Source: a virus (lineage: Duplodnaviria; Caudoviricetes). Taken from it: a DNA stretch of 39,706 nt. Location of the stretch: positions 1 through 39,706 of IMG/VR virus record IMGVR_UViG_3300033109_000107; one strand, written 5' to 3'. How positions within the stretch are numbered: the first letter of the stretch is position 1; each line of letters begins with the position of its first letter. Positions 1 through 15,946 of this stretch are shown here, one piece after another. The notes beneath the pieces were generated by a model. It saw nothing but the letters and a program-made list of their open reading frames with translations, was not told where the DNA came from and did not search any database. The position numbers and the translations under genes were made by a program.

Positions 1-525
1 TCATCTGTCGATGTATCCTTGGTGAAGGTGCTTTTTGAGGGCCATGTAGGTCTCAAAGGCTTCTTCCATGGTATCGAATGGACCAGACCGAACGTGCTTA
101 CCATCTACACTAATAACTGCTACCCACTTTGTGTCGTTTCCCTTTGACGCAAGCACTCCAATTGGCAGGTTTCCAGCGGACATTCTTGTGATGCTTTTTT
201 CTTTGACTGGTGTGTTGTGTGCATTCTCCTTGGGCGTTACATCCCGGAGATTCGCAATTCTGTTGTCGTCCTTTACCCCGTTGATGTGATCGATATTTTT
301 TGGCCACACTCCATAGATATAAAACCACGCCAAGCGATGCTCCCAATACAAGCCGCCAAGCACTCCAATCAATCGATACCCTGTTGGCTTTTTATTTCCT
401 GCTTGCTGACCAATCTGCCCACACCTTCTGCGTTGAACCTTCCATTTGAAAATGCCTGTCTCAGGGTCGTAATCTAGAACGCTACGCAGTTGAGTTAAAT
501 CAATTTTTGCGTTGTACTTGGCCAT
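1..525 (-). CDS. HNH homing endonuclease with C-terminal AP2-like DNA-binding region
   Basis: YDPETGIFKW N-terminus and HRLAW...IDHINGVKDDNRIANLR HNH motif; C-terminal KWVAVISVDGKHVRSGPFDT resembles AP2. Confidence 0.85.
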   Translation of the reverse strand: MAKYNAKIDLTQLRSVLDYDPETGIFKWKVQRRRCGQIGQQAGNKKPTGYRLIGVLGGLYWEHRLAWFYIYGVWPKNIDHINGVKDDNRIANLRDVTPKENAHNTPVKEKSITRMSAGNLPIGVLASKGNDTKWVAVISVDGKHVRSGPFDTMEEAFETYMALKKHLHQGYIDR

Positions 526-575
526 ATTGTCTCCGTAGTAGAAATGCCAATGTATTGTAGCATAAAACCACAGAG

Positions 576-1697
576 ATGCCTACAAACAAACTCACAGACG
601 CCCGCTGCAAGCAGATCAAAGAGCCAGGCAAGCATTTCGACGGCGGGGGAATGTACCTATTCTGCGCCCCTACCGGCTCTAAGCTCTGGCGACTGGCGTA
701 CAGGGTGAATGGCAAGGCGCAAACAGCGACCTTCGGCCCATACCCCGAAGTCTCTCTAGCTGAAGCCAGATCGAAGCGTGACGCGTTCAAACGAGACTTG
801 CGTAATGGCACATTGCCCACAAAGCGGACGCGCTCTATAGCCCTATCTGACGCGATTACGCAGTATTGGGATGGGCGCATGGATTTATCCGAGTCCTACC
901 GATCCAACGCTAAACGCGGGCTGGAGATGCACCTGACCAAGCTTCTCGATACGCAGGTATCGGACATCGCGCGGGAAATGCTGCTAGACGAACTTCGCCG
1001 CATGGACGCGAAGAAGCTCTATGTCTACGTCCGTAAGGTTAGGCGATGGGCAGGGCAGGTATTCGACTGGTGCCAAGATCATGGCTACATGCAAACCAAT
1101 CCTGCGAGAGACATACGCCCGCAGACATTCTCCACTGCTCCGGTAGAACACTTCGCCGCGCTTGAGTTATCAGAGGTTCCCGAGTTCATGGCAAGGCTGA
1201 GCATGGAATCTGACCTGCAATCCGTTCTTGCGTGTAAGCTCTTGGCGCTTACTTGGGTTCGGACGAATGAGCTTCGGATGATGGAGTGGTCGGAGATTGA
1301 CGGGGATTTGTGGCGGATTCCTGCGGGGAAGATGAAGCGCAGGAGGGATCACGTTGTTCCTCTATCACGGCAGTCAGTCGATATCCTAGAGCAACTAAAA
1401 CAGCGTGCAGGGGGTTGTTATGTGTTCTCGCACCCGTATCGGTCTGATCGTCCAATGTCAGAGAACTCCATACTTTATTTGCTCTACAGGATAGGCTACA
1501 AAGGCCGGCTCACTGGTCACGGATTCCGCACCATCGGATCAACATGGGCCAATGAAAACGGATTCAACGCTGATGCTATCGAGAGGCAACTAGCGCACGT
1601 TCCTGGTGATGTTAGGTCAGTGTATAACCGGGCTGAGTATCTGGATGAAAGAAGGCGCATGCTAGAGGCGTGGGCTGACTGGTTGATGCCTGAGTGA
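576..1697 (+). CDS. int: Phage tyrosine integrase (P4/IntA-like with N-terminal arm-binding domain)
   Basis: N-terminal DGGGMYL...GSKLWRLAYR...TFGPYPEVSLAEAR arm-binding motif; catalytic residues in VRTNELR, GKMK, HGFR, LAH, VYNR. Confidence 0.95.
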   Translation: MPTNKLTDARCKQIKEPGKHFDGGGMYLFCAPTGSKLWRLAYRVNGKAQTATFGPYPEVSLAEARSKRDAFKRDLRNGTLPTKRTRSIALSDAITQYWDGRMDLSESYRSNAKRGLEMHLTKLLDTQVSDIAREMLLDELRRMDAKKLYVYVRKVRRWAGQVFDWCQDHGYMQTNPARDIRPQTFSTAPVEHFAALELSEVPEFMARLSMESDLQSVLACKLLALTWVRTNELRMMEWSEIDGDLWRIPAGKMKRRRDHVVPLSRQSVDILEQLKQRAGGCYVFSHPYRSDRPMSENSILYLLYRIGYKGRLTGHGFRTIGSTWANENGFNADAIERQLAHVPGDVRSVYNRAEYLDERRRMLEAWADWLMPE

Positions 1698-1730
1698 TTT
1701 TGTCAGCGTGTCGCATAATTCAAGTTAGCC
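1691..1730 (+). other. Putative attI-like primary recombination site heading the left cassette array
   Basis: Ends in core GTTAGCC (1724-1730); 33/40 identical to the reverse complement of 14601-14640; not an attC hairpin. Confidence 0.7.
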
Positions 1731-1731
1731 G

Positions 1732-1917
1732 TCACAACTTGGCCTCATTGCTGAACCAGTTGCTTATGCGAACTGCCATCTGGTACGCCCCTTCACTTGC
1801 CGCGCCACCAACCGAGATGTACTGGTTGACGATGGCCCAAAATCTTAAAGCGTCTTCCTCGCTTTCGAGTACCAGCGCTATCGGATTAAACGCTCCTTCC
1901 TGCTGCATCATCTTCAT
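1732..1917 (-). CDS. Hypothetical protein (cassette L1, second gene)
   Basis: ORF MKMMQQEGAFNP...; ATGA-coupled to the upstream ORF; stop lies next to the GTTAGCC core. Confidence 0.6.
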   Translation of the reverse strand: MKMMQQEGAFNPIALVLESEEDALRFWAIVNQYISVGGAASEGAYQMAVRISNWFSNEAKL

Positions 1918-2168
1918 TCGTTGCATCCTCGCGTAAATGCCTTCAGCCGCCTCAGATACACGTCGCGCCCTTCGCCGTCTTTCCACAGCGGATCGTCCAT
2001 CTGCTTGTCCAGGTGCGGGCACTCTTCCTGTGCGCACGGAACCAGTGCTCCCAGGTCATCGTCAAACAGCGCCGCAAATATCCCGCGCCCGCATCCCTTG
2101 CCGTAGCAGTTGGCGGTTATCTCCGGCTCTTGCAACCGCAGCACTACGCCGAAAATCTTGGTGCCCAT
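1914..2168 (-). CDS. Hypothetical Cys-containing protein (cassette L1, first gene)
   Basis: 84 aa ORF with GAAAGG RBS just inside the attC inverse core. Confidence 0.65.
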   Translation of the reverse strand: MGTKIFGVVLRLQEPEITANCYGKGCGRGIFAALFDDDLGALVPCAQEECPHLDKQMDDPLWKDGEGRDVYLRRLKAFTRGCNE

Positions 2169-2183
2169 ATCAACCTTTCTGCC

Positions 2184-2243
2184 GGCTAACCCGGCATTGG
2201 TTCGGACCTGCCTTCGGCAGGCCGCACAACTTGGTCGCTAGAC
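2184..2243 (+). other. attC-like site L1 (core degenerate, GCTAGAC)
   Basis: GGCTAAC-CCGGC-ATTGGTTC...CTGCC TTC GGCAG...GCACAAC-TTGGTC-GCTAGAC; the inverse core is complementary to GTTAGCC at 1724. Confidence 0.75.
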
Positions 2244-2399
2244 ATTAATCCCCGCCTCCCTAAGCGTACTTTCTTTCCACCCAACACACCTTAGACTCAA
2301 CTGGACATCAGGCGGGGGAATCTTTCCGGCTTTCCTCCAGGCTAGGAATGTCTTGCGTGAGACTCCGAGCCACTTGCGCAGGTCTGCTTGTTTAATCAT
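2238..2399 (-). CDS. Excisionase / AlpA-like recombination directionality factor (53 aa, not in ORF track)
   Basis: Manual translation MIKQADLRKWLGVSRKTFLAWRKAGKIPPPDVQLSLRCVGWKESTLREAGINV; AlpA/Xis winged-HTH pattern; AAGGA RBS; near int. Confidence 0.8.
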   Translation of the reverse strand: MIKQADLRKWLGVSRKTFLAWRKAGKIPPPDVQLSLRCVGWKESTLREAGINV

Positions 2400-2430
2400 G
2401 TACGATCCTTGATGTTATGGTGTTGTTTGC

Positions 2431-2745
2431 TCATGCCGCGCCAACCCGCGGCATCGACTTCCTCAGTCCGGCCAGCGCCTGAGAGAATCCTATGCGCCGC
2501 TTCCATTCCCTTCCATCGACAACAACGCGGAAGCAGTCGATTCGGTCAGTCTTGAAAAACTCCATGACGTGAGTTTCGTGGCCGAAGTCGAATGACTCGA
2601 CCACCAAGCGACGGCGTAGGTCGGGAAGCGGCGCTGGATAGTCCGGCGCTGATTCTTCCATGCGAGCAACGTCACGAGACCGGCGAATCGCCGCCAGTTC
2701 TTCACGACGCTGCGCTGCTTTTTTGGTCAGTCTGTACATGATCAA
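2431..2745 (-). CDS. Hypothetical protein
   Basis: 104 aa ORF co-oriented with the early left operon. Confidence 0.6.
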   Translation of the reverse strand: MIMYRLTKKAAQRREELAAIRRSRDVARMEESAPDYPAPLPDLRRRLVVESFDFGHETHVMEFFKTDRIDCFRVVVDGREWKRRIGFSQALAGLRKSMPRVGAA

Positions 2746-2760
2746 CCTTGCACGGTAGGT

Positions 2761-3051
2761 CTACTTAACGTTCGGCGTCAGCTTCACGAAGCCGCGAGCG
2801 ACCATGTAGGGGTCGCGCTCGGGGTGATATCGCCGTGCGGCGACATTCTTCGCAGGCTTCAAGCTCAGCATCCGGCGCCAGTATTTCCCGCAGGCCAGCG
2901 CCCGCTCTTGATTCTCCGCCGCGACGTAAACCGAACTGCCGCACTGCTTGCCCTTCTTGTCCACCGGGAAGACCTCCCATTGAAGTCTCTCCGGGTTCAT
3001 TCCCCACGTTCTCGGGTCGTCTCTCACAGGTCTTTCTCCATCACTCTGCAC
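2761..3051 (-). CDS. Hypothetical protein (cassette L2; start may be GTG at 3027)
   Basis: ORF ends TPNVK*, reading across core GTTCGGC (2770-2776). Confidence 0.6.
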   Translation of the reverse strand: MQSDGERPVRDDPRTWGMNPERLQWEVFPVDKKGKQCGSSVYVAAENQERALACGKYWRRMLSLKPAKNVAARRYHPERDPYMVARGFVKLTPNVK

Positions 3052-3242
3052 GGCCAGTGGTGGCCGCAGTTTGCGCAGGCTGCCGTGTCCAGCCGGGTTG
3101 TTTTCAGCGCGGCCGGCGAGCCGTTGGCCATCAGCCAGTGGTAGGCGTGTGTCCCACAGCGGGGGCAGCGCCGCTCCACCTTGGCCGGTAGCCGCCGAAC
3201 CCGTCGCTCCAGGGGGACGCCCTCCATGCCGCTTCGCGTCAT
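3024..3242 (-). CDS. Small zinc-ribbon-like protein (cassette L2)
   Basis: CPRC and CANC pairs; likely start lies within attC L2. Confidence 0.5.
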   Translation of the reverse strand: MTRSGMEGVPLERRVRRLPAKVERRCPRCGTHAYHWLMANGSPAALKTTRLDTAACANCGHHWPCRVMEKDL

Positions 3243-3272
3243 TCCGGTCGCCCCTGAGCTAGTGCGTTGGGC
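3194..3272 (+). other. attC-like site L2
   Basis: GCCGAAC-CCGTC-GCTC(C)AGG...CCTGAGC-TAGTGC-GTTGGGC; extra C in L'' box. Confidence 0.88.
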
Positions 3273-3273
3273 C

Positions 3274-3588
3274 TCACCATCCGCGCGCCACGCACAGCGC
3301 ATCGTTCACCTGTTGTTCCAGGCTCTTGTCGGCCGCATCAGGCAGGCTCACGTCGTCGCCGTCCTGGTTGCTCAGTTGCACCCACGCCGCCCCTCGCTCC
3401 ATGCACAGGTTTAATTGCCACCCTTCCGGCAGGTGTTGGCATACCTTGTTTGCCAGCGCCAGTACGAACATTTGGCCGTCGTCGGTTGTGGGTGCTGCCG
3501 GAGCCAGTCCAAGGCGTTCCAGGTTGCGAATCACGGCGTTCTCGCCAGCTCGTATCTGTGCGCTCCGAATCTCGTCGTGCAAACTCAT
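3274..3588 (-). CDS. Hypothetical protein (cassette L3)
   Basis: MSLHDEIRSAQ..., GAGGA RBS; fills the space between two attC sites. Confidence 0.7.
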   Translation of the reverse strand: MSLHDEIRSAQIRAGENAVIRNLERLGLAPAAPTTDDGQMFVLALANKVCQHLPEGWQLNLCMERGAAWVQLSNQDGDDVSLPDAADKSLEQQVNDALCVARGW

Positions 3589-3613
3589 GATCCTGTCCTC
3601 TCCGGGCGCTGAG

Positions 3614-3681
3614 GCCCAACACTTCAATCGAGGCGACCTGTCGCATAAAGCCGCGCCAGTCGCTCACCTCCAGCGTTATGC
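3614..3681 (+). other. attC-like site L3
   Basis: GCCCAAC...GTTATGC imperfect inverted repeat; GAGGCCCAAC complements GTTGGGCCTC at 3266. Confidence 0.85.
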
Positions 3682-3682
3682 C

Positions 3683-3889
3683 TCATGCTGCGCGCCAGTG
3701 AATGTTCAGGCCGAGCAACGTGGCGCGAAGCTGCTTGTATTGCCGTTGCCAGTAGAACAGTCGCGGGTGTAGCGAGAGTGAGACCTTCCACCCTTCTCGG
3801 TGCTCCCACCGTCCGCTTTCAAATCGAAACAGCGTTACCCGGCTGTCTCCTGTCGCTCTTGCGCCAATCCAGAACATCATTCGCATCAT
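3683..3889 (-). CDS. Hypothetical Trp/Arg-rich protein (cassette L4)
   Basis: 68 aa ORF with GGAG RBS between attC L3 and L4. Confidence 0.6.
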   Translation of the reverse strand: MMRMMFWIGARATGDSRVTLFRFESGRWEHREGWKVSLSLHPRLFYWQRQYKQLRATLLGLNIHWRAA

Positions 3890-4551
3890 CGTTCTCCGTT
3901 GTTGTCGCCGGCATAACCCGGCAGTCCAGCGGACGCCGTGCCGGCTCCGCTGACTTTTGCGTTGGGGGTCTTACACTTTGCTGCCAGCTCTACGAGCCAT
4001 TGCGCGAGCGCCGGCGGCGTGTGCTCGCGTTCCGACTTCGTCACCTCCGGGCGCCACCCGGCCATGCCCTTCACCAAGCGCCGACCATCTGGCAACGTCC
4101 TGTGCTGCGCTATTACGTGTGTCGCTCCGCCCAGGTGCATGGGTATCGGCGGCACGTCCGCCGGCTCGGCGCCAACGATGTAGAGAAGCGTCAACTTCTC
4201 CGCTCGGTGCCCAAACCAATGCTGAGAAATTCCGAGCGTCCAACCTCCAAATGCATCGCGCTCGCCTGGGCGTGGAAGGGCCTGCGCCGGCCAAAGAGTC
4301 GAGCCTTCCGGGTGCTCCAGCACCCCGCCGAATTCGCGCACCAGCGCCACCGCCAGCCTGGCCAGGTTGCGCTCGTCAGCGCGCACCTTTGCAAATCTTC
4401 GCAGTCGCCCCCATCCACGGCATGGCGGGTGCGCTACCACAGGCCAAGGGCCGTCGTAGGTGCGCGCATCACGCTCCATGTCATACACGTCCACGTCAGG
4501 CAGCGCCTTGTAGTTGCTGTCTGCGCGGGCAAACAAAACCGCCACGGTCAT
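3886..4551 (-). CDS. DNA cytosine-5 methyltransferase-like protein (cassette L5)
   Basis: Start MTVAVLF; VVAHPPC (motif IV-like) and GVLEHP (motif VI-like); C-terminus reads through attC L4. Confidence 0.65.
   Translation of the reverse strand: MTVAVLFARADSNYKALPDVDVYDMERDARTYDGPWPVVAHPPCRGWGRLRRFAKVRADERNLARLAVALVREFGGVLEHPEGSTLWPAQALPRPGERDAFGGWTLGISQHWFGHRAEKLTLLYIVGAEPADVPPIPMHLGGATHVIAQHRTLPDGRRLVKGMAGWRPEVTKSEREHTPPALAQWLVELAAKCKTPNAKVSGAGTASAGLPGYAGDNNGER
3911..3967 (+). other. attC-like site L4 (57 bp)
   Basis: GCATAAC-CCGGC-AGTC(C)AGC-GGA(C)GCCG TGC CGGCTCC-GCTGACT-TTTGC-GTTGGGG: canonical R''/L''/L'/R' layout with two extrahelical bases. Confidence 0.92.
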
Positions 4552-4561
4552 GAGCCGAGAC

Positions 4562-4632
4562 CCCCAACACTGCGTTGCAGGGGACGCTCCGCCGAAAAGC
4601 CGGCGGCGCGCCCCTGAACTTGGACGTTGGGC
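4562..4632 (+). other. attC-like site L5
   Basis: CCCCAAC-ACTGC-GTTGCAGG...CCTGAAC-TTGGAC-GTTGGGC. Confidence 0.88.
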
Positions 4633-4636
4633 CTCA

Positions 4637-4855
4637 TCAGCATCCACACGTAGGCGGTTGTTCCTTCCCGGCCTTGCGGAACACCTCATCCCGGAAGTCT
4701 CGGCACAGCTTGTCCAGGGTCAGCGAGTCCAGGTCGCTCAGTGGGTAGCACGGGAGTTCCTGCATCCCGTCCTGCTTCAGCCCGGGCTTTCCAACCGCCC
4801 GCACAAAGTTCGGCGTCTGGAACGGTTGCAGTTCAACTTGTAGCGTTGCTTTCAT
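4637..4855 (-). CDS. Hypothetical protein (cassette L6)
   Basis: 72 aa ORF with AAGGA RBS between attC L5 and L6. Confidence 0.7.
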   Translation of the reverse strand: MKATLQVELQPFQTPNFVRAVGKPGLKQDGMQELPCYPLSDLDSLTLDKLCRDFRDEVFRKAGKEQPPTCGC

Positions 4856-4885
4856 GTCCTTGTCCTTTCTTCGTAGTCACCAGAG

Positions 4886-4972
4886 GCCCAACCCTACGGT
4901 CGACATCGCTCCCTTCGGTCGCTGGACCTCGCGCGATAAGGCCGCGCGAGGCCGGTCACCTACACGTTCGGC
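4886..4972 (+). other. attC-like site L6
   Basis: GCCCAAC...CCTCGCGCG ATAAGGC CGCGCGAGG...GTTCGGC. Confidence 0.82.
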
Positions 4973-5123
4973 GTCACTTCCCAATCGGTGCAGTCGTCAA
5001 TGTCGATGCGTAGGTCGTAACCGTTCTCGCGCTCAAAATGTTTCGTCAGCCATACGTCTCCCATTCGGCTGCAACCGATGCAGCGGTAACGCTTGCCGTC
5101 CTTGTAGGTGCAAAACAGCTTTC
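4966..5123 (-). repeat. 158 bp exact inverted copy of 14450-14607
   Basis: Base-by-base comparison; identity stops at the GTT/AAC core. Confidence 0.92.
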
Positions 5124-5159
5124 TTCAGCATTTCCGATTATCACTTTTTCAGCCATCAT
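4967..5159 (-). pseudogene. Chimeric cassette remnant: N-terminus MMAEKVIIGNAE fused out of frame to the 3' half of the 14332-14610 gene
   Basis: RBS and ATG at 5159; junction at 5123; the cassette's two cores are non-complementary. Confidence 0.65.
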
Positions 5160-5181
5160 CACTCCGTAGTTACGTTTTGCC

Positions 5182-5251
5182 TGCCAACCCGTCGCTCAAG
5201 CGGGACGCGCCGCGATAAAGCTGCGTCGCGCCCCTTAGCTCTACGTTAGGG
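5182..5251 (+). other. attC-like site L7
   Basis: TGCCAAC-CCGTC-GCTCAAGC-GGGACGCG...CGCGCCCCTTAGC-TCTAC-GTTAGGG. Confidence 0.88.
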
Positions 5252-5255
5252 AACT

Positions 5256-5666
5256 TCATTTCACGATGCCGTATTTCCGCGTAGCCCCTGCCACTGCCGG
5301 ATTAACGACCCTCGATTTCCATCCGTCGCGGGTCTTTTGTTGGAACCGCTCGGCGAATGTTTCCTCGCGCAGCAACTTGCCGCCCATGAGACGATCCAGC
5401 CGCTGCACACCCTTACGCACGTTCCCGCTTCCGTTCCCTGCATTGCAAAGCGTGCGCAGCCGCAGGCGCAAATCGGGCGGAAACGAATCAAACTCCCTCG
5501 CTACCAGTTCGACCGCGCTTTCGTGGCTCAGTTGGGTAAAAATCGACTGCGCCACCTTGTCGGTGTTCTTCGAGCTAAAGAAGCCCGCTCCGTTCTCTCG
5601 CGGTACATACGCCTTCCACTGCGATAGCGGCACGTTAAACGCCAGCATCTCTAATGCTATGCTCAT
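5256..5666 (-). CDS. Hypothetical protein (cassette L8)
   Basis: MSIALEMLAF..., GGAG RBS; 136 aa between attC L7 and L8. Confidence 0.7.
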   Translation of the reverse strand: MSIALEMLAFNVPLSQWKAYVPRENGAGFFSSKNTDKVAQSIFTQLSHESAVELVAREFDSFPPDLRLRLRTLCNAGNGSGNVRKGVQRLDRLMGGKLLREETFAERFQQKTRDGWKSRVVNPAVAGATRKYGIVK

Positions 5667-5684
5667 TCTTGTTCTCCGCCAGTT

Positions 5685-5771
5685 CCCTAACCTTACGTTG
5701 CAGGGGACGCCGATTAAGCGTCGTTGGTCTTGGCGGGCGCTTCTAAGGCGCCCCTGAACTCCACGTTGGGC
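5685..5771 (+). other. attC-like site L8
   Basis: CCCTAAC-CTTAC-GTTGCAGG...CCTGAAC-TCCAC-GTTGGGC; AGTTCCCTAAC complements GTTAGGGAACT at 5245. Confidence 0.88.
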
Positions 5772-6016
5772 ATTTTGGTCTTTTTCACCGGCACAGCCGC
5801 TGCCAGTGCGTTGCACATCGCCTCACCAGCAGCGAACAGCGCCTGTAGTTCAGGCGTCCTCTCGCCTGGCTGGACGCACTCCTCCCGCAGCCGCCCGTCG
5901 TTGGTGGCGATGTAAACCCATGTCGGAGCATTGCTCCAGCCGGGGCCGTTACAGCGTTCCGGTACTACGGCGACAACCCGCTCGCCGTAGGCCAGTTTGA
6001 TGGTTCGTGCCTTCAT
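5714..6016 (-). CDS. Hypothetical protein (cassette L9)
   Basis: GGAGGGAG RBS; C-terminus PNVEFRG... is encoded by attC L8. Confidence 0.7.
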   Translation of the reverse strand: MKARTIKLAYGERVVAVVPERCNGPGWSNAPTWVYIATNDGRLREECVQPGERTPELQALFAAGEAMCNALAAAVPVKKTKMPNVEFRGALEAPAKTNDA

Positions 6017-6029
6017 TCTCCCTCCTGAT

Positions 6030-6088
6030 GCCCAACAGGGCCATGCACCGGACCCGCTGAAGCGGGCCGGTGATGTTCGACGTTAGGC
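6030..6088 (+). other. attC-like site L9 (59 bp)
   Basis: GCCCAAC-AGGGC-CATGCACC-GGACCCGCT GA AGCGGGCC-GGTGATG-TTCGAC-GTTAGGC. Confidence 0.88.
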
Positions 6089-6120
6089 CCCAATGCCGAA
6101 GCACCGGGGCCGCCCCATGT

Positions 6121-6333
6121 TCAGAACCGCATCGCCTCGGCAATGTCACGAATCCGCATCCCAAGCAGCGGCGCAAGCGTCTTCTTGCTCTCTTCCAGAC
6201 GCTCAATCTCTTGGCGCAGCGTGGAAATCTTGGCGTCGATGTTCTCTTCCACGGTCGGGTTGTGGTCGCGCCCGCCAATCAGTTGCCCTGCTGCCCTGTT
6301 TTCGCATTTCGCCATCTGTGCTTGTTCGTACAT
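6121..6333 (-). CDS. Hypothetical coiled-coil protein (cassette L10)
   Basis: MYEQAQMAK..., AGGAG RBS. Confidence 0.7.
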   Translation of the reverse strand: MYEQAQMAKCENRAAGQLIGGRDHNPTVEENIDAKISTLRQEIERLEESKKTLAPLLGMRIRDIAEAMRF

Positions 6334-6366
6334 TTCGATTTCTCCTGCCCGTCTCAAGGGTGCCGG

Positions 6367-6447
6367 GCCTAACCCGTCGATCAACACGGACGCCCTTCGG
6401 CGTCGCTGCGCGCCGCCTACGTGCGCCGGTTATCTAGGTCGTTATCA
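6367..6447 (+). other. attC-like site L10 (last in left array)
   Basis: GCCTAAC-CCGTC-GATCAACACGGACGCC...TGCGCCGGTTATC-TAGGTC-GTTATCA. Confidence 0.85.
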
Positions 6448-6455
6448 TCCTCAAA

Positions 6456-6920
6456 CTAGAACGGAATGTCGTCCTCGAAGTCGTTGAAGCCGCCGCCCGA
6501 AGACGGTGCGGCCGGCTTCGACGGAGCCGGCCGGCTGCCGCCGCCGCTGCTCTCGCGCGGTCCGGCATCGCCCATGCCCTCACGCCGGCCCAGCATCTGC
6601 ATCTCGTTGGCTTCGATCTCGGTGGTGTAGCGCTCCTGGCCTTCCTTGTCGGTCCACTTGCGCGTACGGATGCGGCCTTCGAGGTAAACCTGCGAGCCCT
6701 TCTTGAGGTACTGGCCGGCAATCTCGGCCAGCTTGCGGTAGAAGACCACGCGATGCCACTCGGTGATTTCCTTCTTCTCGCCCGACTGCTTGTCTTTCCA
6801 GCTCTCGGTGGTCGCCACGCGGATGTTGCACACCGCGTCGCCGTTGGGCATGTAGCGTGTCTCCGGGTCCGCACCGAGGTTGCCGATGAGGATTACTTTG
6901 TTGACGCTTGCCATGCTCAT
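6456..6920 (-). CDS. ssb: Single-stranded DNA-binding protein
   Basis: [21 protein letters not shown]... OB fold and acidic DDIPF tail. Confidence 0.97.
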
Positions 6921-7648
6921 TCCTTTACGTTTGATTTGGTGAATTTCGTCCAGGCGGTCGAAAGCTTCTTTCCGTCCTCAGTCTTTGCCGCCCCGAGGAA
7001 GTACGGGACCGCTGCCAGCATGTCGTTTGTCAGACCTGTAGTGAATCGCAAGTGCTGGTCTACTTGTTGAATGTCTCCTGTTTCGCGGTAGATTGTTACC
7101 GCTTCTTTGACGGAATCAAAGACGATTACACGTTCTTCATCCGTCAAGTCATCTGCGCACGATTGCGATGGGGTGATGGCTCCATTCCCTTGTTGAATCC
7201 CGGTGTCTTTGTACTTGGTGCCATCCCATCGTCCCATGTAGATGTCAGCAGCTACGCCAAGCATTTTGAGCGCAACCGATAGGGCATCCGTGGTTGCCAT
7301 CTTGAAAGACTCGTCATTGTGGTGAATGCCGTTTTTGTCTTTTTCAAGCAGCATTGATCCGCCGATGCCTGGAATTGGCGCAGACCACCCTTCGTCCTGT
7401 TTGGTATAAACCAGAACACTTGCAAAGGCGAACATCTGCCCGTCAAGCCCAGGCTCAGTCCAGAGGCGCGTTACTTCGTATTTCCAGCCAATCCCGCAAG
7501 GCCCGAAGGTGTCGTGCATAACCTTGTAGCGCCATTGCGGGTTGACATCTGTCATCCCCGACAATCGACCACCTTTGATCGCCTTGAGTGCGTCCTTTGG
7601 CGGTCTTGCCAGTTGTTCCCATGCGCTGATTTTCTCGGGTGCATTCAT
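6917..7648 (-). CDS. Single-strand annealing recombinase (Rad52/Sak-like)
   Basis: [16 protein letters not shown]...FGPCGIGW...[22 protein letters not shown] pattern; located directly upstream of ssb. Confidence 0.7.
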
Positions 7649-7692
7649 ATTCCTGCTCCTGTCCTAATTGCTGCCAATATTGGATGCCACGA

Positions 7693-7797
7693 TCAGACAT
7701 GATCATCAATCCATGCCTTCCAGAAAATCGACGCTATCGCCACACCTGCCAGAAGGCCGAAGAGAAACCACTTCATAATTTCGTAGTCACTCATCAT
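7693..7797 (-). CDS. Small membrane peptide (34 aa)
   Basis: Manual translation MMSDYEIMKWFLFGLLAGVAIASIFWKAWIDDHV; overlaps neighbouring ORFs. Confidence 0.45.
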   Translation of the reverse strand: MMSDYEIMKWFLFGLLAGVAIASIFWKAWIDDHV

Positions 7798-7888
7798 CGC
7801 CCATTCCATAACTGATCGCTGATCCAACAAGCCACGCGACCGCGCACATGACGACCGTATAGACGAATACCACTAACAGGAAGTCCAT
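7787..7888 (-). CDS. Small membrane peptide (33 aa)
   Basis: Manual translation MDFLLVVFVYTVVMCAVAWLVGSAISYGMGDDE; TAATG coupling and GGAGG RBS. Confidence 0.5.
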   Translation of the reverse strand: MDFLLVVFVYTVVMCAVAWLVGSAISYGMGDDE

Positions 7889-8223
7889 TACTTGCCCTCC
7901 ACCTTGAATCGAATCCATCCTTCTGCGGCATCAAGTAGCCATTCATTGATCCGCTGGTAGGCCCGAGTAATTCCAGAAGCATCCAAGTCACGCATGGCCG
8001 TCCCGAACTCCGAGAGAATCCGAATCATTGCGTTAGGCTCGGTGCCGTATTCGGCGCACATCGCGTTGCTAATGACATCGATCAACTCAAGCCGGTTGGA
8101 TACGTCAAACAGTTCCGTGACCTGGCGCTTGATTTCCTGCTCGGCTTCGCGCTCCTGCTGGTCAGTCATGAACATCCTGCGTTCCAAGTCAATAGGCATT
8201 GATATTCCGTCGCTGAATCCCAT
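7888..8223 (-). CDS. Hypothetical protein, first gene of the left early operon
   Basis: 111 aa ORF with AAGGAG RBS. Confidence 0.65.
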   Translation of the reverse strand: MGFSDGISMPIDLERRMFMTDQQEREAEQEIKRQVTELFDVSNRLELIDVISNAMCAEYGTEPNAMIRILSEFGTAMRDLDASGITRAYQRINEWLLDAAEGWIRFKVEGK

Positions 8224-8609
8224 GATGTCTCCTTGTTCGTCCCGGTGGTGCCTCGCCGGGAAGCGGCTTCTTCCAGCCTTCCCGACCCTTGGGGGTCAAT
8301 CCAAGCAGCTACTAGCGCCGCTGCTCAAGGCATCCTCGCCGGTCATCCGGGCCGGCACGGTTGAATCAACACTCCACTTTCTCAACTGGACTACTGACTT
8401 CCGCAGTAGCTAGATGGAGGGCGGCTCACCGGCTCCACTCGCCCGGTATGGCTTTTAGCGAGAACAAGCCGCCTTTCATCTAGCTACTGCACCTACCGGG
8501 TGATTCACCTATCGCTGCGGTCCTGCGTGGCCTAGCCCGTTGCGCCTGCGATCTGTGACAGTGCCCTTCGGTTTTGCTGCATCGGCTTTAACTTCATCCG
8601 ATGGTTCGT

Positions 8610-8637
8610 ATCTTACCAGACTAAGCGAACAAGTCAA
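8610..8637 (-). promoter_or_regulatory. Putative PL promoter with overlapping operator CTTA-N6-TAAG (8612-8625)
   Basis: TTGACT-16-TAAGAT on - strand; the same palindrome overlaps the PR -10. Confidence 0.6.
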
Positions 8638-8668
8638 GTGGAAAATTCGCGCGCTAAGTTATGCGGGC

Positions 8669-8692
8669 AAAAAAATCCCGCTGGTAGCGGGA
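8669..8692 (-). terminator. Rho-independent terminator after the cI-lipoprotein unit
   Basis: ATCCCGCT acc AGCGGGAT hairpin followed by a T-run on - strand. Confidence 0.7.
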
Positions 8693-8700
8693 TGATTTGG

Positions 8701-9063
8701 TTACTGGCAGAAGGTTTGTATTCGCCCTGTAGCGTCCCTGTAAGTTTGGCAATTCACCATGCGGGGCGGCTGAGGCGGTGAGGATAATACTTGCGGCTGG
8801 CTTTGATGTAGAAGCTGTGAGCCTATAGCAGCGCGTCTTGCATCCTTACTATCTTCGATCCTGGCTTGCTCGCTCGACAGCCTCCAATCACATTGATGCC
8901 CGCGTAAATGAAGCTCCCTTGCAGCAGCATCACGATTGCTTGCCCGTGTGAATACCGAATAACAGAGGTCTTCATTGGTTGCTGCCCTAGCTTCTTTTCG
9001 TTGCATTGCTTGGGTTGAGCAGCCAGTTATTGACGCCGCAAGCAACAATACGAGTATGCGCAT
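8701..9063 (-). CDS. Lipoprotein downstream of the repressor
   Basis: MRILVLLLAASITGC signal peptide with lipobox Cys. Confidence 0.7.
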   Translation of the reverse strand: MRILVLLLAASITGCSTQAMQRKEARAATNEDLCYSVFTRASNRDAAARELHLRGHQCDWRLSSEQARIEDSKDARRAAIGSQLLHQSQPQVLSSPPQPPRMVNCQTYRDATGRIQTFCQ

Positions 9064-9141
9064 TCCTTGCCTCCGATAAATATATGACTTTAGCATTAGT
9101 CAAAGGCGCTCTAGCCCTAGTCTTGCGCACTCGGGGTTGGG

Positions 9142-9579
9142 CTATCGTGTCCCGGTGCGCTTGTGAGGGGTTGTTTTTGGTGGGGCCTTCCCGAGTGTCA
9201 TGGCGATCTGCTGATTCTTCTTCGCCCGCTCTAAAGCTGCGGCCTTTTCCTCTGGCAAGAGCCAGTCAAAGGCATTCATCCACTCGGTTTGTTCGTCGGT
9301 CATCTTGGATGCCGGGGGCATGTCTTTAAGACGTTTGGGTAGCTTGCCATGATTTACCCAATCCGGTGAATAGCCCAAACGGACTAATCTAGCCAAGGAG
9401 TCTTCGCCCAATTTCTCGTTTGGGTCGGTACTGGTCTTGATCTGACCGACGCGGCCCGAACTTCTTCCGATCATCTCGGCAATTCTGTTATTCAGGCCGT
9501 GCGCGTCTTCCGCTCCCTGTTCAAGAGCGATTTCCTTCAGACGGTCGAATAGCTTTCCCATGCTTACCATGCTATTCAT
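9142..9579 (-). CDS. CI-like repressor (HTH; no S24 peptidase domain seen)
   Basis: Divergent from cro; IAEMIGRSSGRVGQI HTH-like segment and SPDWVNHGK motif. Confidence 0.7.
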   Translation of the reverse strand: MNSMVSMGKLFDRLKEIALEQGAEDAHGLNNRIAEMIGRSSGRVGQIKTSTDPNEKLGEDSLARLVRLGYSPDWVNHGKLPKRLKDMPPASKMTDEQTEWMNAFDWLLPEEKAAALERAKKNQQIAMTLGKAPPKTTPHKRTGTR

Positions 9580-9597
9580 TCATCTGCTTACTGCGCC

Positions 9598-9626
9598 TTG
9601 CTTTTTAACACTTAGCGGAGTAAGAT
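9598..9626 (+). promoter_or_regulatory. Putative PR promoter with operator CTTAGCGGAGTAAG (9611-9624)
   Basis: TTGCTT-17-TAAGAT just upstream of cro. Confidence 0.65.
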
Positions 9627-9633
9627 AGTCAGT

Positions 9634-9792
9634 ATGAACGCTAACAAAATCATTGACGCTCTCGGCGGAACTAGCGCGGTAGCCAAGCTGTTTGAGGTTA
9701 CGACCGGAGCGGTATCGCAGTGGCGCAAGAAGGGCATTCCAAAAGCTCGGTTGCTGCATTTGAAGTCTATTCGGCCGGATTTGGTTGCGTGA
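9634..9792 (+). CDS. cro: Cro-like repressor (52 aa, not in ORF track)
   Basis: MNANKIIDALGGTSAVAKLFEVTTGAVSQWRKKGIPKARLLHLKSIRPDLVA: typical Cro/YdaS HTH. Confidence 0.88.
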   Translation: MNANKIIDALGGTSAVAKLFEVTTGAVSQWRKKGIPKARLLHLKSIRPDLVA

Positions 9793-9837
9793 GTCCATGC
9801 AAAAAATTTTGCGCCATCTTCAACTGGTAACTCAACG

Positions 9838-10191
9838 ATGAATCCTATGAATTCTCTTGATATACCACTTGCCTTCGGAGTCTCAAACGCCCCGATCTGG
9901 TTGGACGACAAGGCCATATCTAGTGTTTCGTCCTACCGGGAAGCTGTCCGTATCTGCTGGATTCATCGTCGCATTCAAGGGATGACGCAACGGACTGCCG
10001 CTGAACTGTGCGGGCTGTACCCGTCACATGTCTCGGATTACCTCTCCGACGACGAAAGCAAGAGGAATCTGCCAGCAGATCGAATCCAGGCATTTGAATC
10101 CCTCTGCGGAAACCGTGCAATCACCCAATGGGAAATGCGCCAGAGGGGATTGACGATCATGGAAGAGGTCATCAGCAGGAAGGCTGCGTAG
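9838..10191 (+). CDS. CII-like HTH transcriptional regulator
   Basis: MTQRTAAELCGLYPSHVSDYL HTH; position after cro. Confidence 0.7.
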   Translation: MNPMNSLDIPLAFGVSNAPIWLDDKAISSVSSYREAVRICWIHRRIQGMTQRTAAELCGLYPSHVSDYLSDDESKRNLPADRIQAFESLCGNRAITQWEMRQRGLTIMEEVISRKAA

Positions 10192-10733
10192 TGGCTCAAC
10201 GTGCAAAGCTCGGCAAAAAAGTCCGCTTCAATGTTTTTAAGCGCGATGCCTTCACCTGCCAATACTGCGGGAGTAAGCCGCCCGCTGTGGTCTTAGAGGT
10301 AGATCACATACATCCAGTATCAAAGGGCGGCACAGACGAAATAGATAATCTCATTACTGCTTGCTTTGATTGCAACAGGGGTAAGTCGTCCGGGCTTCTA
10401 TCAGCGATCCCCCAGAGCCTTGAAGAAAGGGCGGAGCAACTACGCGAGAAGCACGAGCAAATCAAAGCATACGAACGTCTTTTAAAGACAATTAAGCGCA
10501 AGGAAGATGCCGACATTGATCGCGTTGAGGATGTCTTCAGGGAATACTTCAACGGATTTGTCTTTTCTGAAAATTTCAGAGACTCAGTGAGGTTGTTCCT
10601 TCAGAAGCTGCTTAGAGATGAGGTTGAGAGTGCAATGCACAAGGCATGCTCTCGCATCAAGACAAGACACGAAGCAATCAAATACTTCTGCGGAATTTGC
10701 TGGACGATGATTAGGAATAACAAGAATGCCTAA
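10191..10733 (+). CDS. HNH endonuclease
   Basis: RFNVFKRDAFTCQYCG...LEVDHIHPVSKGG...NLITACFDCNRGK. Confidence 0.9.
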   Translation: MAQRAKLGKKVRFNVFKRDAFTCQYCGSKPPAVVLEVDHIHPVSKGGTDEIDNLITACFDCNRGKSSGLLSAIPQSLEERAEQLREKHEQIKAYERLLKTIKRKEDADIDRVEDVFREYFNGFVFSENFRDSVRLFLQKLLRDEVESAMHKACSRIKTRHEAIKYFCGICWTMIRNNKNA

Positions 10734-11532
10734 TCGAATCCTCAAGGAAACCATCTGCACTAGCGAAGAGGTCGAAGCCCTCTCACCAGAGCAAGAGGTT
10801 TTCTTCTATCGCTTGATGGTCGTATGCGACGACTTTGGTCTCATGGATGCGCGGCCCGCAATACTGAAAGCACGGTGCTATCCATTGAAATCAATTGATA
10901 TCAAGCGAATTCAATTGAACTTGGATGTTTTGCAGCAGGTTGGGTTGATTTCAACCTACATGGTGGCCGGGAAACCGTACCTGCACATAGCAAATTGGGA
11001 AAAGCACCAGCAGATCAGGGCGAAGCGGGCGAAATACCCCATGCCAAGTGAATCTGATAGCACTTGCAATCAATTGATATCAGATGCACCCGTAATCCAA
11101 TCCAATCCAATCCAATCCGAATCCAATCCGAATCCAATCCAATCAGCGGGGAAAAAGGCATCCCCGCAGTTTGAGCAAGCATGGACAGAGTACCCGCGTA
11201 AGGGCGACACAAACAAGCGTGGTTCTCTAAAAGCATGGAACGCAAGGGTCAGTGATGGCGAAGACCCGGATGCGATGTTGGCTGGAGTCATTCGTTACGC
11301 GGCCTACTGTCGTGCCATGCAAACCGAGAACGCCTACATCAAGCAGCCGGCAACATTCTTCGGCCCGGACAAGCATTACCTGACCTCTTGGGAAATCCCG
11401 CAAAGGAGTCCGCATGCAAACCATCGGAACACTGCTGCCGACACTATCGCAGCCTTCACAGGACAACGACAGCCAGCCGTACCAGAAGGGAGTTCCGGAG
11501 TCGTGGTTGAGGGCAGCGGAACTCGTGTTTGA
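10726..11532 (+). CDS. Phage replication initiator protein
   Basis: MPNRILKETI...DDFG N-terminal domain, low-complexity linker, FEQAWTEYPRK...YIKQPATFF C-terminal domain. Confidence 0.8.
   Translation: MPNRILKETICTSEEVEALSPEQEVFFYRLMVVCDDFGLMDARPAILKARCYPLKSIDIKRIQLNLDVLQQVGLISTYMVAGKPYLHIANWEKHQQIRAKRAKYPMPSESDSTCNQLISDAPVIQSNPIQSESNPNPIQSAGKKASPQFEQAWTEYPRKGDTNKRGSLKAWNARVSDGEDPDAMLAGVIRYAAYCRAMQTENAYIKQPATFFGPDKHYLTSWEIPQRSPHANHRNTAADTIAAFTGQRQPAVPEGSSGVVVEGSGTRV
11094..11144 (+). repeat. AATCC(G) tandem microrepeat within the replication gene
   Basis: aatccaatccaatccaatccaatccgaatccaatccgaatccaatccaatc. Confidence 0.85.
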
Positions 11533-11821: not shown

Positions 11822-11890
11822 TCCCCTGCATGGGCGGCTGGTGCCTTTCCCGCATTCGTTGCGCTCACTACCACTCGGAGATGCAAGTAG

Positions 11891-13403: not shown

Positions 13404-13612
13404 TCTGCGGCAACAAAAACAAGCCTACCCTAGACGGCTATTGGGCGCAGAACGGCACAGAAGTAGTGATGGATGTCGAGCTAGGCCCGATTGTGGTTAG
13501 GAAGGCTGTATGGATAGAGGATCACATGTCACGTGAATGCAGGTTCGATCAGAAGACGGAAGAGATGTGCGGAGGATGTGAGAGGTTTAACTGCGAGGTA
13601 ACCGGCGCATGA
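13400..13612 (+). CDS. Hypothetical protein
   Basis: Coupled ORF; last codons (FNCEVTGA) are encoded by attC R2. Confidence 0.6.
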   Translation: MICGNKNKPTLDGYWAQNGTEVVMDVELGPIVVRKAVWIEDHMSRECRFDQKTEEMCGGCERFNCEVTGA

Positions 13613-13663
13613 CGGCGAGCGCAGCGATGCCGTCAGGCGTCCGTGTTGACCGTGTAGTTATGC
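13585..13663 (-). other. attC-like site R2
   Basis: - strand GCATAAC-TACAC-GGTCAACACGGACGCC...TGCGCCGGTTACC-TCGCA-GTTAAAC; very similar to attC L10. Confidence 0.85.
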
Positions 13664-14256
13664 GCCTGGCTGCGCTGTTCGTGCAGCCGGACGGATGCTA
13701 TGCGGGACTGCCCGGCGTTGATGCGTGGCCGGAGCATCGAGACGCGAGGCGCTACGCGGGACCGCTGCCGGTTGTTGCGCACCCGCCCTGCCAATTGTGG
13801 GGCGCGATGGCGAACGTGAACTATGCCCGATGGGGCGGCGAGCACAACCGGCCTGGGAATGATGGTGGTTGCTTCTCTTCGGCGCTTGAAAGCGTGCGGC
13901 GGTTTGGTGGGGTGCTGGAGCACCCAGCAAAGACGAAGGCATGGGCCGCGCACGGACTGGCGCAACCGACCGGAATTGGCTGGCAGCGAACCATTGATGG
14001 TGGGTGGGTGTGCGAGGTTTGGCAGAGCGCCTACGGCCACCGGGCGAACAAGGCGACATGGCTTTACTACCACGGCACGAACCCGCCATTTGAACTGCGG
14101 TGGGCGAGGCCGGAAGGGACGCACCAGATTGGGTTTCACGACCAACGAGGGAAGGCGGCAAACAAGCCGACCCTCGGCAAGCGAGAGGCGAACGCTACGC
14201 CTTTGGAATTTCGGGACGAACTGCTGCGCCTGGCGATGATGGCGCATAACGACTGA
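13609..14256 (+). CDS. DNA cytosine-5 methyltransferase-like protein (cassette R2; alternative start 13660)
   Basis: LAALF, VVAHPPC, GVLEHP, YGHRANKATWLY; paralogue of 3886-4551. Confidence 0.65.
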   Translation: MTASAAMPSGVRVDRVVMRLAALFVQPDGCYAGLPGVDAWPEHRDARRYAGPLPVVAHPPCQLWGAMANVNYARWGGEHNRPGNDGGCFSSALESVRRFGGVLEHPAKTKAWAAHGLAQPTGIGWQRTIDGGWVCEVWQSAYGHRANKATWLYYHGTNPPFELRWARPEGTHQIGFHDQRGKAANKPTLGKREANATPLEFRDELLRLAMMAHND

Positions 14257-14307
14257 GTTGTGGGGCGGGCCGCTTGCGGCACGTCCCACACGAACGACGG
14301 GTTCGGC
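14244..14307 (-). other. attC-like site R1
   Basis: - strand GCCGAAC-CCGTC-GTTCGTGT-GGGACG...GCCGC AA GCGGC...CCCACAAC-TCAGTC-GTTATGC. Confidence 0.82.
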
Positions 14308-14331
14308 GGCACTGGAAACGGAGGACAAGCG

Positions 14332-14610
14332 GTGAAACACATTGACGACTGGCTGGATGACCCGACAACCGGCCCGGCTGACGTAAAGGAATGGCTTGAG
14401 CATTTCCGCAGGCCGGCGATTGACAAGGACTACAAGTGGCTGGCAGCGCGAAAGCTGTTTTGCACCTACAAGGACGGCAAGCGTTACCGCTGCATCGGTT
14501 GCAGCCGAATGGGAGACGTATGGCTGACGAAACATTTTGAGCGCGAGAACGGTTACGACCTACGCATCGACATTGACGACTGCACCGATTGGGAAGTGAC
14601 GCCGAACTAG
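14332..14610 (+). CDS. Hypothetical protein (cassette R1)
   Basis: GGAGG RBS and GTG start; ends TPN* at the core. Confidence 0.75.
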   Translation: MKHIDDWLDDPTTGPADVKEWLEHFRRPAIDKDYKWLAARKLFCTYKDGKRYRCIGCSRMGDVWLTKHFERENGYDLRIDIDDCTDWEVTPN

Positions 14611-14640
14611 ATTTATACGACACGCCGACAAAAACACTCA
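14601..14640 (-). other. Putative attI-like site heading the right cassette array
   Basis: - strand tgagtgtttttgtcggcgtgtcgtataaatctaGTTCGGC, matching 1691-1730. Confidence 0.7.
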
Positions 14641-14779
14641 ACCAAGGAGAACAAATGAACGAACCATGTAAAGGATGCCGGTATCTCTCTTGGCTATGGG
14701 GCTGTCGAATCTGCATGAAGCACGATTACCAAGCGGGGGTAAGGTTCAGCAAGTGTCAAGACTACAAGGAACGAGACTG

Positions 14780-15280: not shown

Positions 15281-15314
15281 CATACCACAAAACAGCCCAT
15301 CCGTGTATCAATCC

Positions 15315-15792: not shown

Positions 15793-15800
15793 TGAAGTTT

Positions 15801-15934: not shown

Positions 15935-15946
15935 CATTTCTAGCCC

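What the first reader, a model, noticed from the sequence alone, without database searches (positions are those of the whole stretch)
1725..6441. All cassette genes are antisense to canonical integron orientation
The extra base in L'' and the position of the attI-like site define + as the attC top strand in the left array and - in the right array, yet every ORF is on the opposite strand. In standard integrons most cassette genes read from attI/Pc toward their attC. Here they read toward attI, driven by the phage PL/PR promoters, so new cassettes would land at the promoter-distal end. Inference: this is a separate, phage-specific cassette pool that would be transcriptionally silent if inserted in a host integron, and host cassettes would be silent in the phage.
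Basis: partly seen in the sequence, partly recalled or inferred. Interest (0 to 1): 0.82.

Follow-up and report, generated by a model that had tools for sequence, protein, structure and literature searches.

The report
Phage integron arrays with reversed genes
This temperate phage keeps twelve small gene cassettes between genuine integron recombination sites, with every intact gene facing the opposite way from bacterial cassettes and no integron enzyme in the sequenced contig, so it likely borrows that enzyme from a helper prophage or its host to swap genes that would be read only in the phage.

Summary
Confirmed. A covariance model and a profile, both trained only on attC sites of intI-anchored bacterial integrons, put all 10 left sites on + and both right sites on -, with no hit on the opposite strand. 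All 11 intact cassettes code on the other strand. The pattern is general: 93 of 109 cassettes in viral contigs are antisense (2 sense, 14 uncalled), against 67 of 83 sense in bacterial integrons.

Three corrections:
(1) The left block is two arrays. A phage-type attI at 1707 heads one cassette; after xis, a host-type attI at 2753 heads nine. A second phage-type attI heads the right array.
(2) Related phages carry their own IntI clade (28 viral plus 2 phage-type genome rows, SH-aLRT 97), next to this attI type and antisense arrays. The window has the same layout without intI.
(3) The pools leak: 3 of 21 chromosomal integrons hold an antisense cassette in first position.

Transcription from PL/PR and present-day activity are inferred, not shown. 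Ten literature searches found no description of this polarity.

The parts
576..1697 (+). Phage integrase with an arm-binding domain; not an integron integrase. Its stop abuts attI-A.
   Evidence: phrog_1; PF13356 and PF00589; no TIGR02249 hit
1707..1730 (+). attI-A, phage-type primary site; crossover after G1724
   Evidence: Best hit in the window (22.1 bits) to a profile of 18 attI sites lying beside IntI genes of phage contigs and prophage-type genome loci
1725..2237 (+). Cassette c1 (attC 2184-2243). ORF 1914-2168 on -, plus a second minus-strand frame ending at 1732.
2238..2399 (-). Excisionase-like gene, not a cassette; its stop codon lies in the R' box of the c1 attC
   Evidence: phrog_66, E 1e-4
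2431..2739 (-). 102-aa ORF, not a cassette; its relative in L285 also lies just beyond the head of an antisense array
2753..2776 (+). attI-B, host-type primary site core; crossover after G2770; heads cassettes c2-c10
   Evidence: Best hit in the window (16.9 bits, next 9.0) to a profile of 16 chromosomal attI cores; just under the leave-one-out range of 17.1-32; attC right ends score 0.5 or less
2771..3266 (+). Cassette c2 (attC 3194-3272). Two ORFs on -: 3024-3179, and a frame ending at 2761 whose stop is supplied by attI-B.
   Evidence: 81% identical, from the crossover on, to a cassette of the complete phage-type integron L249
3267..3675 (+). Cassette c3 (attC 3614-3681); ORF 3274-3588 on -
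3676..3961 (+). Cassette c4 (attC 3911-3967); ORF 3683-3889 on -
   Evidence: 88% identical to a cassette in L285, with a different neighbour, from the crossover on
3962..4626 (+). Cassette c5 (attC 4562-4632). The phrog_12600 gene 3886-4551 on - reads through the whole c4 attC.
   Evidence: one phage relative is annotated 'putative DNA methylase'
4627..4966 (+). Cassette c6 (attC 4886-4972); ORF 4637-4855 on -
   Evidence: The attC is 81-87% identical to attC sites in the chromosomal arrays of L165, L255 and L288
4967..5245 (+). Cassette c7, a broken chimera: 157 nt identical to r1, fused to the 5' end and attC (5182-5251) of a methylase-like cassette
   Evidence: 93% to L197; the only cassette whose two ends are not complementary
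5246..5765 (+). Cassette c8 (attC 5685-5771); ORF 5256-5666 on -
5766..6082 (+). Cassette c9 (attC 6030-6088); ORF 5714-6016 on -, with its stop inside the c8 attC
6083..6441 (+). Cassette c10 (attC 6367-6447); ORF 6121-6333 on -; the ssb gene ends just beyond it
9142..11532 (.). Divergent control and replication region: repressor-like ORF (-); cro-like, cII-like and replication initiator genes (+); iteron-like repeats near 10876-11146. It places PL, PR and the origin between the arrays.
   Evidence: the repressor call rests on position only (no family hit)
13591..14249 (-). Cassette r2 (attC 13585-13663, top strand -). The phrog_12600 gene 13660-14256 on + starts in its own R'' box and stops in the r1 attC.
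   Evidence: 85% to L191 from the crossover on
14250..14606 (-). Cassette r1 (attC 14244-14307, top strand -). The 92-aa gene 14332-14610 on + has its stop supplied by attI-C.
   Evidence: DNA likeness starts at cassette base 1 in 8 of 10 viral relatives; 171 protein relatives
14601..14624 (-). attI-C, phage-type primary site; crossover after G14607
   Evidence: Second-best hit (17.9 bits) to the phage attI profile; its motif retrieves other antisense arrays

Best explanation
The phage carries three integron arrays (attI plus 1, 9 and 2 attC cassettes) whose genes lie on the attC bottom strand, and an integron integrase supplied from outside (from a co-resident prophage with a phage-type intI, or from the host chromosome) likely cuts cassettes out and inserts them at these attI sites. 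Shown: the sites, their polarity, cassette-exact boundaries with relatives, two attI types, and a phage IntI clade linked to the same attI type and polarity. Inferred: IntI chemistry is unchanged (a folded bottom strand, crossover at G|TT), so only the gene is flipped. The genes are then read by the phage's early PL and PR transcripts, which run towards attI, so a new cassette is appended at the far end of an operon without disturbing the genes ahead of it. Because recombination is shared and polarity is opposite, a host cassette entering the phage, or a phage cassette entering the host array, would face away from the local promoter and be silent unless it has its own promoter. [quoted passage not shown] Flipped cassettes would thus give fast turnover without head-on transcription.
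For: Polarity. IntI-type insertion history: in 11 of 12 cassettes the start is the exact complement of the cassette's own R'' box, while 0 of 12 attC sites are self-complementary; the wider sets give 80 against 6 of 109 (viral) and 68 against 10 of 83 (bacterial). Mobility: likeness to relatives starts at the crossover for c2, c4, c5 (L006), r1 (8 of 10 loci) and r2, with unrelated DNA just upstream in the cases printed (c2, c4, r1). A contig of another public run starts to match at the c4 crossover (3674) after 51 unlike letters. Recent traffic: 157 nt are 100% identical between c7 and r1, and r1 is in first position at attI-C. The attI motif searched alone found 8 metagenome loci (5 with antisense arrays, 1 sense array, 2 unclear) and 8 viral loci (3 with antisense arrays, two of them the same phage as L143 and one the same contig as L133; 5 chance hits without attC). 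Phage IntI: 31 of 56 viral intI loci have attC upstream, all on the strand that intI dictates and mostly with antisense genes. 28 of 35 viral rows plus L161 and L249 form one clade (SH-aLRT 97, quick tree). L167 shows array, attI, intI, a tyrosine recombinase, then host genes: the window's layout with intI still present. Host side: 26 of 40 genomes in the family of G216 have intI over the cut-off; their attI core matches attI-B; window attC sites match theirs at up to 87%. Phage attC sites from other phages are IntI1 substrates (Qi 2023, section 3.4 read). Lagging-template effect: Loot 2017, passages.
Against: The window has no intI and no lysogen was found, so the source of the enzyme is unproven; the source run suggests about 2 kb of flanking DNA lies outside the window. 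No excision joint was seen in the source run, which is contigs only. Signs of decay: c7 is a broken fusion, c5 reads through a whole attC, and the R box left behind c1 starts GCT rather than GTT. The attI-A/C motif also heads one sense array with no intI in 590 nt upstream (L142), so it may be the host type of a lineage I did not sample. attI-B scores just under its leave-one-out range and could be the right half of a lost attC. The IntI clade is partly by construction, since the query was L161, and L211 (antisense array) falls among host IntIs. The promoter scan found no more sites than shuffles do (4 against 7.6), so PL and PR are placed by gene order only. Two viral cassettes were called sense, one family of them shared by L134 and L152.
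Confidence: 0.7

Rival explanations
1. Fossil arrays: they were built by a phage intI that once sat between attI-A and the phage integrase. It was lost, and the cassettes are now ordinary early genes that change only by deletion and homologous recombination.
For: L167 has intI at exactly that position; L006 has an internally deleted intI; c7 is a non-IntI fusion; some genes rely on neighbouring att sites for their stop codons.
Against: The 157-nt perfect duplicate begins exactly at a crossover; 11 of 12 attC sites score at E 4e-5 or better; complete or near-complete phage records without intI keep intact attI and arrays (G406 100%, G409 90% complete); likely hosts have intI.
Confidence: 0.15
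2. Only the host IntI matters. attI-A and attI-C are the chromosomal attI type of an unsampled host, and the likeness to the phage IntI clade's attI is shared ancestry.
For: L142 is a sense array headed by the same motif; attI-A/C lack the upstream box typical of attI sites beside phage intI genes.
Against: The motif was found with up to 1 mismatch in only 1 of 401 betaproteobacterial genomes, beside head/portal-like phage genes; it scores in the range of the phage attI profile and not the host profile. This rival changes the source of the enzyme, not the polarity.
Confidence: 0.2
3. The hairpins serve as short homologies and expression signals for modular shuffling by the phage's own recombination proteins or integrase, with no integron integrase involved.
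For: The phage encodes an integrase, ssb, an exonuclease-like protein, NinB and NinG; start or stop codons overlap att sites in several cassettes.
Against: The attC sites are too unlike each other for that (one search finds only short, 70-85% alike families); boundaries fall at G|TT; the extra bases and spacer asymmetry that IntI reads are kept; related arrays sit beside intI.
Confidence: 0.07
4. The polarity is incidental: the cassettes are read from their own promoters, or were dropped one by one at non-attI (attG-like) sites in whichever orientation happened to be expressed.
For: IntI inserts cassettes at many genomic sites, and these can be expressed from resident promoters (preprint 10.1101/2022.09.11.507474, passages).
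Against: The arrays start at conserved attI sites. Strand selectivity fixes a cassette's orientation relative to attI, so the gene must already be flipped inside the cassette, and homologous cassettes are flipped wherever they were found with attC (5 of 39 phrog_12600 loci and 8 of 10 r1 loci have attC, none with a neighbouring site on the gene's strand).
Confidence: 0.05

Closest known systems
Class 1 and sedentary chromosomal integrons (intI, attI, Pc, attC cassettes)
   Same: attC architecture and sequence families, G|TT crossover, attI at the array head, intI opposite to the attC top strand in related phage loci
   Different: Genes lie on the bottom strand and read towards attI; no intI in this contig; no Pc role; where intI is present in relatives it is co-oriented with the cassette genes; several arrays per genome
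Integrons and CALINs in phage genomes (Qi, Rajabal, Ghaly, Tetu, Gillings 2023, PMC9892861)
   Same: attC clusters without intI in phages; attI at the head of a CALIN in prophage M16-3; phage attC sites recombine with IntI1; methylase cargo
   Different: In the sections and passages I read (3.3, 3.4, term searches; supplements and figures not seen) the arrays are called typical in structure. No systematic antisense polarity, phage IntI clade or phage attI type is described.
Replication-dependent attC orientation (Loot et al. 2017, PMC5371416)
   Same: Bottom strand on the lagging template favours folding and excision; such arrays are short (up to 22, median 15)
   Different: Large chromosomal arrays use the leading template. 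Here the flip would combine the lagging template with co-directional genes (inferred).
Cassette insertion outside attI (attG sites; Loot et al., preprint 10.1101/2022.09.11.507474)
   Same: Cassettes can be expressed from resident, non-Pc promoters
   Different: Here there are ordered arrays behind conserved attI sites, not scattered single insertions

Membership tests
Integron attC cassettes | R''-L''-L'-R' imperfect palindrome with asymmetric spacers and extrahelical bases | tested here: met
   12 sites found by profile and covariance model
Integron attC cassettes | Cassette ends complementary; crossover at G|TT | tested here: met
   11 of 12 cassettes; homology breakpoints at the crossover
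Integron attC cassettes | Gene on the top strand, upstream of its attC (typical, not absolute) | tested here: not met
   0 of 11 intact cassettes
Integron attC cassettes | Bottom strand recombined by IntI | not testable with these tools
   Needs a recombination assay. The predicted bottom-strand fold is more stable than the top in 10 of 12 sites, which is only suggestive.
Complete integron | intI (TIGR02249) next to attI | tested here: not met
   The only tyrosine recombinase beside the arrays is a phage integrase; I did not run a separate IntI search on the late-gene half, and about 2 kb of flank may be missing
Complete integron | attI at the array head | tested here: met
   attI-A and attI-C match attI sites beside phage intI genes; attI-B matches chromosomal attI cores more weakly
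Complete integron | Pc promoter reading from attI into the array | tested here: inconclusive
   No promoter-like match near any attI; the scan is at chance level. Such a promoter would be antisense to the genes.
CALIN (attC cluster lacking intI) | Two or more attC sites without a neighbouring intI | tested here: met
Lambdoid temperate phage | int-xis, divergent early operons, replication initiator, nin genes, terminase, portal, capsid, endolysin | tested here: met
   the repressor and Q-like genes are assigned by position only

The most novel reading that the evidence does not exclude
Phages run their own branch of integrons: a phage IntI clade with its own attI type and a mirror-image cassette pool. 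This phage is an integrase-less user of it with two keys, phage-type attI sites for helper prophages and a host-type attI for the host enzyme. The flip works as a firewall: anti-phage defence cassettes picked up from host integrons stay unread in the phage, while the lagging-strand position keeps turnover high. Phage arrays also feed cassettes into host integrons, and ordinary phage genes (phrog_12600 occurs with attC in only 5 of 39 loci) are being turned into cassettes, which gives a handle on how cassettes are made.
Probability: 0.35. Interest if true: 0.9.

Novelty: new variant of a known kind. Interest (0 to 1): 0.78.

Why it matters
Integrons are treated as bacterial devices, now seen as stores of anti-phage defences (search listing and start of abstract). 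Here phages use the same recombination system with reversed polarity, apparently widely and with their own integrase clade. It offers a simple rule (shared recombination, opposite expression) that can be tested with existing conjugation assays. It explains some 'backwards' first cassettes in chromosomal integrons as phage captures. It also supplies paired examples of one gene family with and without attC, which bears on the open question of how cassettes originate.

Tried and rejected
(1) My first strict motif scanners missed half the sites and gave false ones; they were replaced by trained models. (2) The first attI pattern gave 4 viral hits with no attC array, which I treat as chance. (3) Five relatives of the phage integrase had no attC within the DNA held, so the arrays do not follow the integrase family. 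(4) The structure-free model R1 found 8 left sites, part of a ninth and neither right site. (5) Length-and-RBS strand calls were misled by shadow ORFs in GC-rich DNA (34 'sense' viral calls when flanks were cut off); I rely on the composition model. Of its 7 host 'antisense' calls, 3 look like shadows of the DUF1010 cassette (annotated on the sense strand), 1 looks like a shadow of a sense gene, 2 are unclear and 1 (phrog_3848) is real. L252 was a miscall; L228 and L235 stay uncertain. I inspected only the flagged host loci, not all 21. (6) The 2433-2490 stretch looks like a left attC half but lies inside the 102-aa ORF and scored under threshold; rejected as a site. (7) LexA boxes: 0 of 26 phage-type intI, but also 0 of 19 in the likely host family (10 of 11 in other Betaproteobacteria and class 1), so uninformative. 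(8) RNA: no RNA holder listed, and contigs cannot show strand. Joints in run X2 have sides of 20-34 letters at attC repeats and were not used. (9) The promoter and terminator scans were at chance level. (10) Pfam, NCBIfam and PHROGs name none of the cassette genes beyond phrog_12600. (11) The careful tree did not finish; the quick tree is reported. Rows under 250 aligned residues, with stops, duplicated, or over 93% identical to IntI1 (3 kept) were left out. (12) No folding or complex job was sent, as none bore on the claim.
Full report
Setting. The window is a whole 39.7-kb virus record with a lambdoid layout: integrase 576-1697(+), xis 2238-2399(-), ssb and an exonuclease-like gene (-), divergent control genes near 9.6 kb, a replication initiator with iteron-like repeats, ninB, ninG, two tRNAs, terminase, portal, capsid and endolysin. 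The likely source run covers nearly all of 1-16000 with long contigs that show no differing letters, so the sequence is not an assembly artefact.

Observation. I needed a strand call independent of the window. I fetched 80 intI loci from named genomes and collected attC sites upstream of intI with a rule-based caller; 53 of 56 unique calls fell on the strand that intI dictates. A profile trained on 32 of them and a covariance model built from 28 both gave ten sites on + (2184, 3194, 3614, 3911, 4562, 4886, 5182, 5685, 6030, 6367) and two on - (13585, 14244), and nothing on the opposite strands. A phage attC read on my 'top' strand aligns with the aadA5 attC on the gene strand. In all 11 intact cassettes the coding ORF is on the bottom strand by a composition model, and in 4 of 4 tested by substitution pattern.

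These are cassettes with an IntI-type history. In 11 of 12 the first bases are the exact complement of the cassette's own R'' box, and no attC is self-complementary. That is what circle insertion at G|TT leaves; it says nothing about polarity by itself. Homologues begin to match at the crossover (c2 in L249, c4 in L285, c5 in L006, r2 in L191, r1 in 8 of 10 loci), with unrelated DNA just upstream in the cases printed. The exception, c7, is a deletion fusion of an r1 copy (157 nt, 100% identical) with the head of a methylase-like cassette known from L197. One cassette was therefore recently present in both arms.

Three attI sites of two types. The motif shared by 1707-1730 and 14601-14624, searched alone, retrieved 5 antisense arrays, 1 sense array and 2 unclear loci among 8 metagenome hits, and 3 antisense arrays and 5 chance hits among 8 viral hits. 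Among 401 genomes of a betaproteobacterial order it hit one, G216. G216 has three intI genes: two chromosomal ones with sense cassettes, and one (L161) with a similar attI and antisense cassettes, followed by a tyrosine recombinase and then host genes. A profile of attI sites beside phage-type intI genes ranks attI-A and attI-C first in the window. A profile of host attI cores ranks 2753-2772 first, at 16.9 bits against 9.0 for the next hit, though just under its leave-one-out range. In L285 the relative of the 102-aa gene also flanks an array head, with a different core.

A phage branch. L161's IntI retrieved 56 viral loci. The 31 with attC upstream keep the usual intI-attC geometry but mostly have antisense genes, co-oriented with intI. 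Over all loci, unique attC-to-attC cassettes scored 93 antisense, 2 sense and 14 uncalled of 109 viral, against 67 sense, 7 antisense and 9 uncalled of 83 bacterial; most of the 7 look like shadow ORFs. In a quick tree of 78 IntI proteins, 28 of 35 viral rows plus L161 and L249 form one clade (SH-aLRT 97) apart from host enzymes. The query biases this, and L211 is an antisense array whose IntI falls among host ones. Of five phage records with antisense arrays searched for intI, four had none and one had an internally deleted copy, so integrase-less users look common.

The pools leak. Of 21 chromosomal integrons of the G216 family with a called cassette, 3 clearly have an antisense first cassette (L239, L244, L247), 2 are uncertain, and an Aquincola MAG (L118) adds one. 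Flanks of L244 (pdxJ, nagZ, uvrC), L247 (soxAB) and L239 (a Lon-like gene) are host genes, and where the array continues the later cassettes are mostly sense. The second cassette of L239 is phrog_3848. The best of 26 viral relatives of the L244 cassette is itself an antisense cassette in an array; 24 of the other, mostly weak, hits have no attC. First position means recent insertion (established integron biology), so host IntIs accept phage-polarity cassettes. In the other direction, 2 sense calls exist in viral arrays, one family of them in L134 and L152.

Mechanism. Shown: anatomy, polarity, boundaries, attI types, the IntI clade and exchange. Established knowledge: IntI recombines the folded bottom strand, which fixes a cassette's orientation at attI (passage). 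Inferred: the genes are read from PL and PR towards attI; new cassettes are appended at operon ends; crossed cassettes are silent; the enzyme comes in trans. Several genes take their stop codon from the neighbouring att site (c2, c9, r1, r2) or read through it (c5), so their last residues change with the neighbour. The cause of the flip is open. My preferred pair of reasons, both untested: it keeps host defence cassettes unread, and, with an origin between the arms, it puts the bottom strand on the lagging template, where excision is higher (Loot 2017, passages), while genes stay co-directional.

Literature. Ten full-text searches found one paper on phage integrons, Qi 2023. I read its sections 3.3 and 3.4 and passages by term and saw no statement of antisense polarity; its figures and supplements, which I did not see, could show it. 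I read passages only of PMC5371416, PMC11551772, 10.1101/2025.06.18.660453 and 10.1101/2022.09.11.507474, and listing lines only of the defence-cassette preprints. Subscription journals are mostly outside the library. The labels PL, PR, Q-like and lambda-type bidirectional replication are recalled, not from calls. This scan's own notes report the same polarity in at least 42 other genomes; these are unchecked AI notes and not evidence.

Verdict. A real feature and a new variant of integrons.

Noticed in passing
window 4967-5123 and 14450-14606: The 157-nt duplicate is an inverted repeat around the control and replication block, so it could invert that 9.3-kb block. Contigs of the likely source run break at it, and depth is 73-75 between the copies against 85-87 outside; this is unexplained.
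   Followed up: partly
window 1-525: HNH endonuclease gene (phrog_99) divergent from the integrase; a second HNH-type gene lies at 10191-10733, before the replication initiator.
   Followed up: no
window 15722-15880: tRNA-Gly(TCC) and tRNA-Asp(GTC) between the Q-like gene and the terminase region, preceded by GC-rich non-coding DNA at about 15400-15720.
   Followed up: no
window 8403-8490: A 24-bp inverted repeat (92% complementary) in the non-coding leader of the leftward operon; possibly an antitermination or RNA element.
   Followed up: no
L285 (G216:C26) 6700-9560: An element with a large primase-like gene and tyrosine recombinases but no head genes in the stretch, possibly a phage satellite, carries an antisense cassette array sharing c4 and a duplicated attC with a cassette head.
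   Followed up: partly
L134 near 4300-4890 and L152 10977-11566: A cassette whose likely ORF is in the sense (host) orientation within otherwise antisense phage arrays; it may carry its own promoter.
   Followed up: no
L142 590-5600 (flipped): A sense array with an HNH-like first cassette (label recalled), headed by the same attI core as the phage, with no intI in 590 nt upstream.
   Followed up: partly
L006 7371-7862 (G410): An internally deleted intI at the end of an antisense array in a provirus record.
   Followed up: partly
L132, L135: Other phages also have attC sites of opposite polarity in their two divergent early arms, as this window does.
   Followed up: partly
L008, L009, L010, L133, L143: Many cassette ORFs begin inside their own attC, so attC bottom strands are translated as N- and C-terminal tails that gene callers add to phage proteins.
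   Followed up: partly
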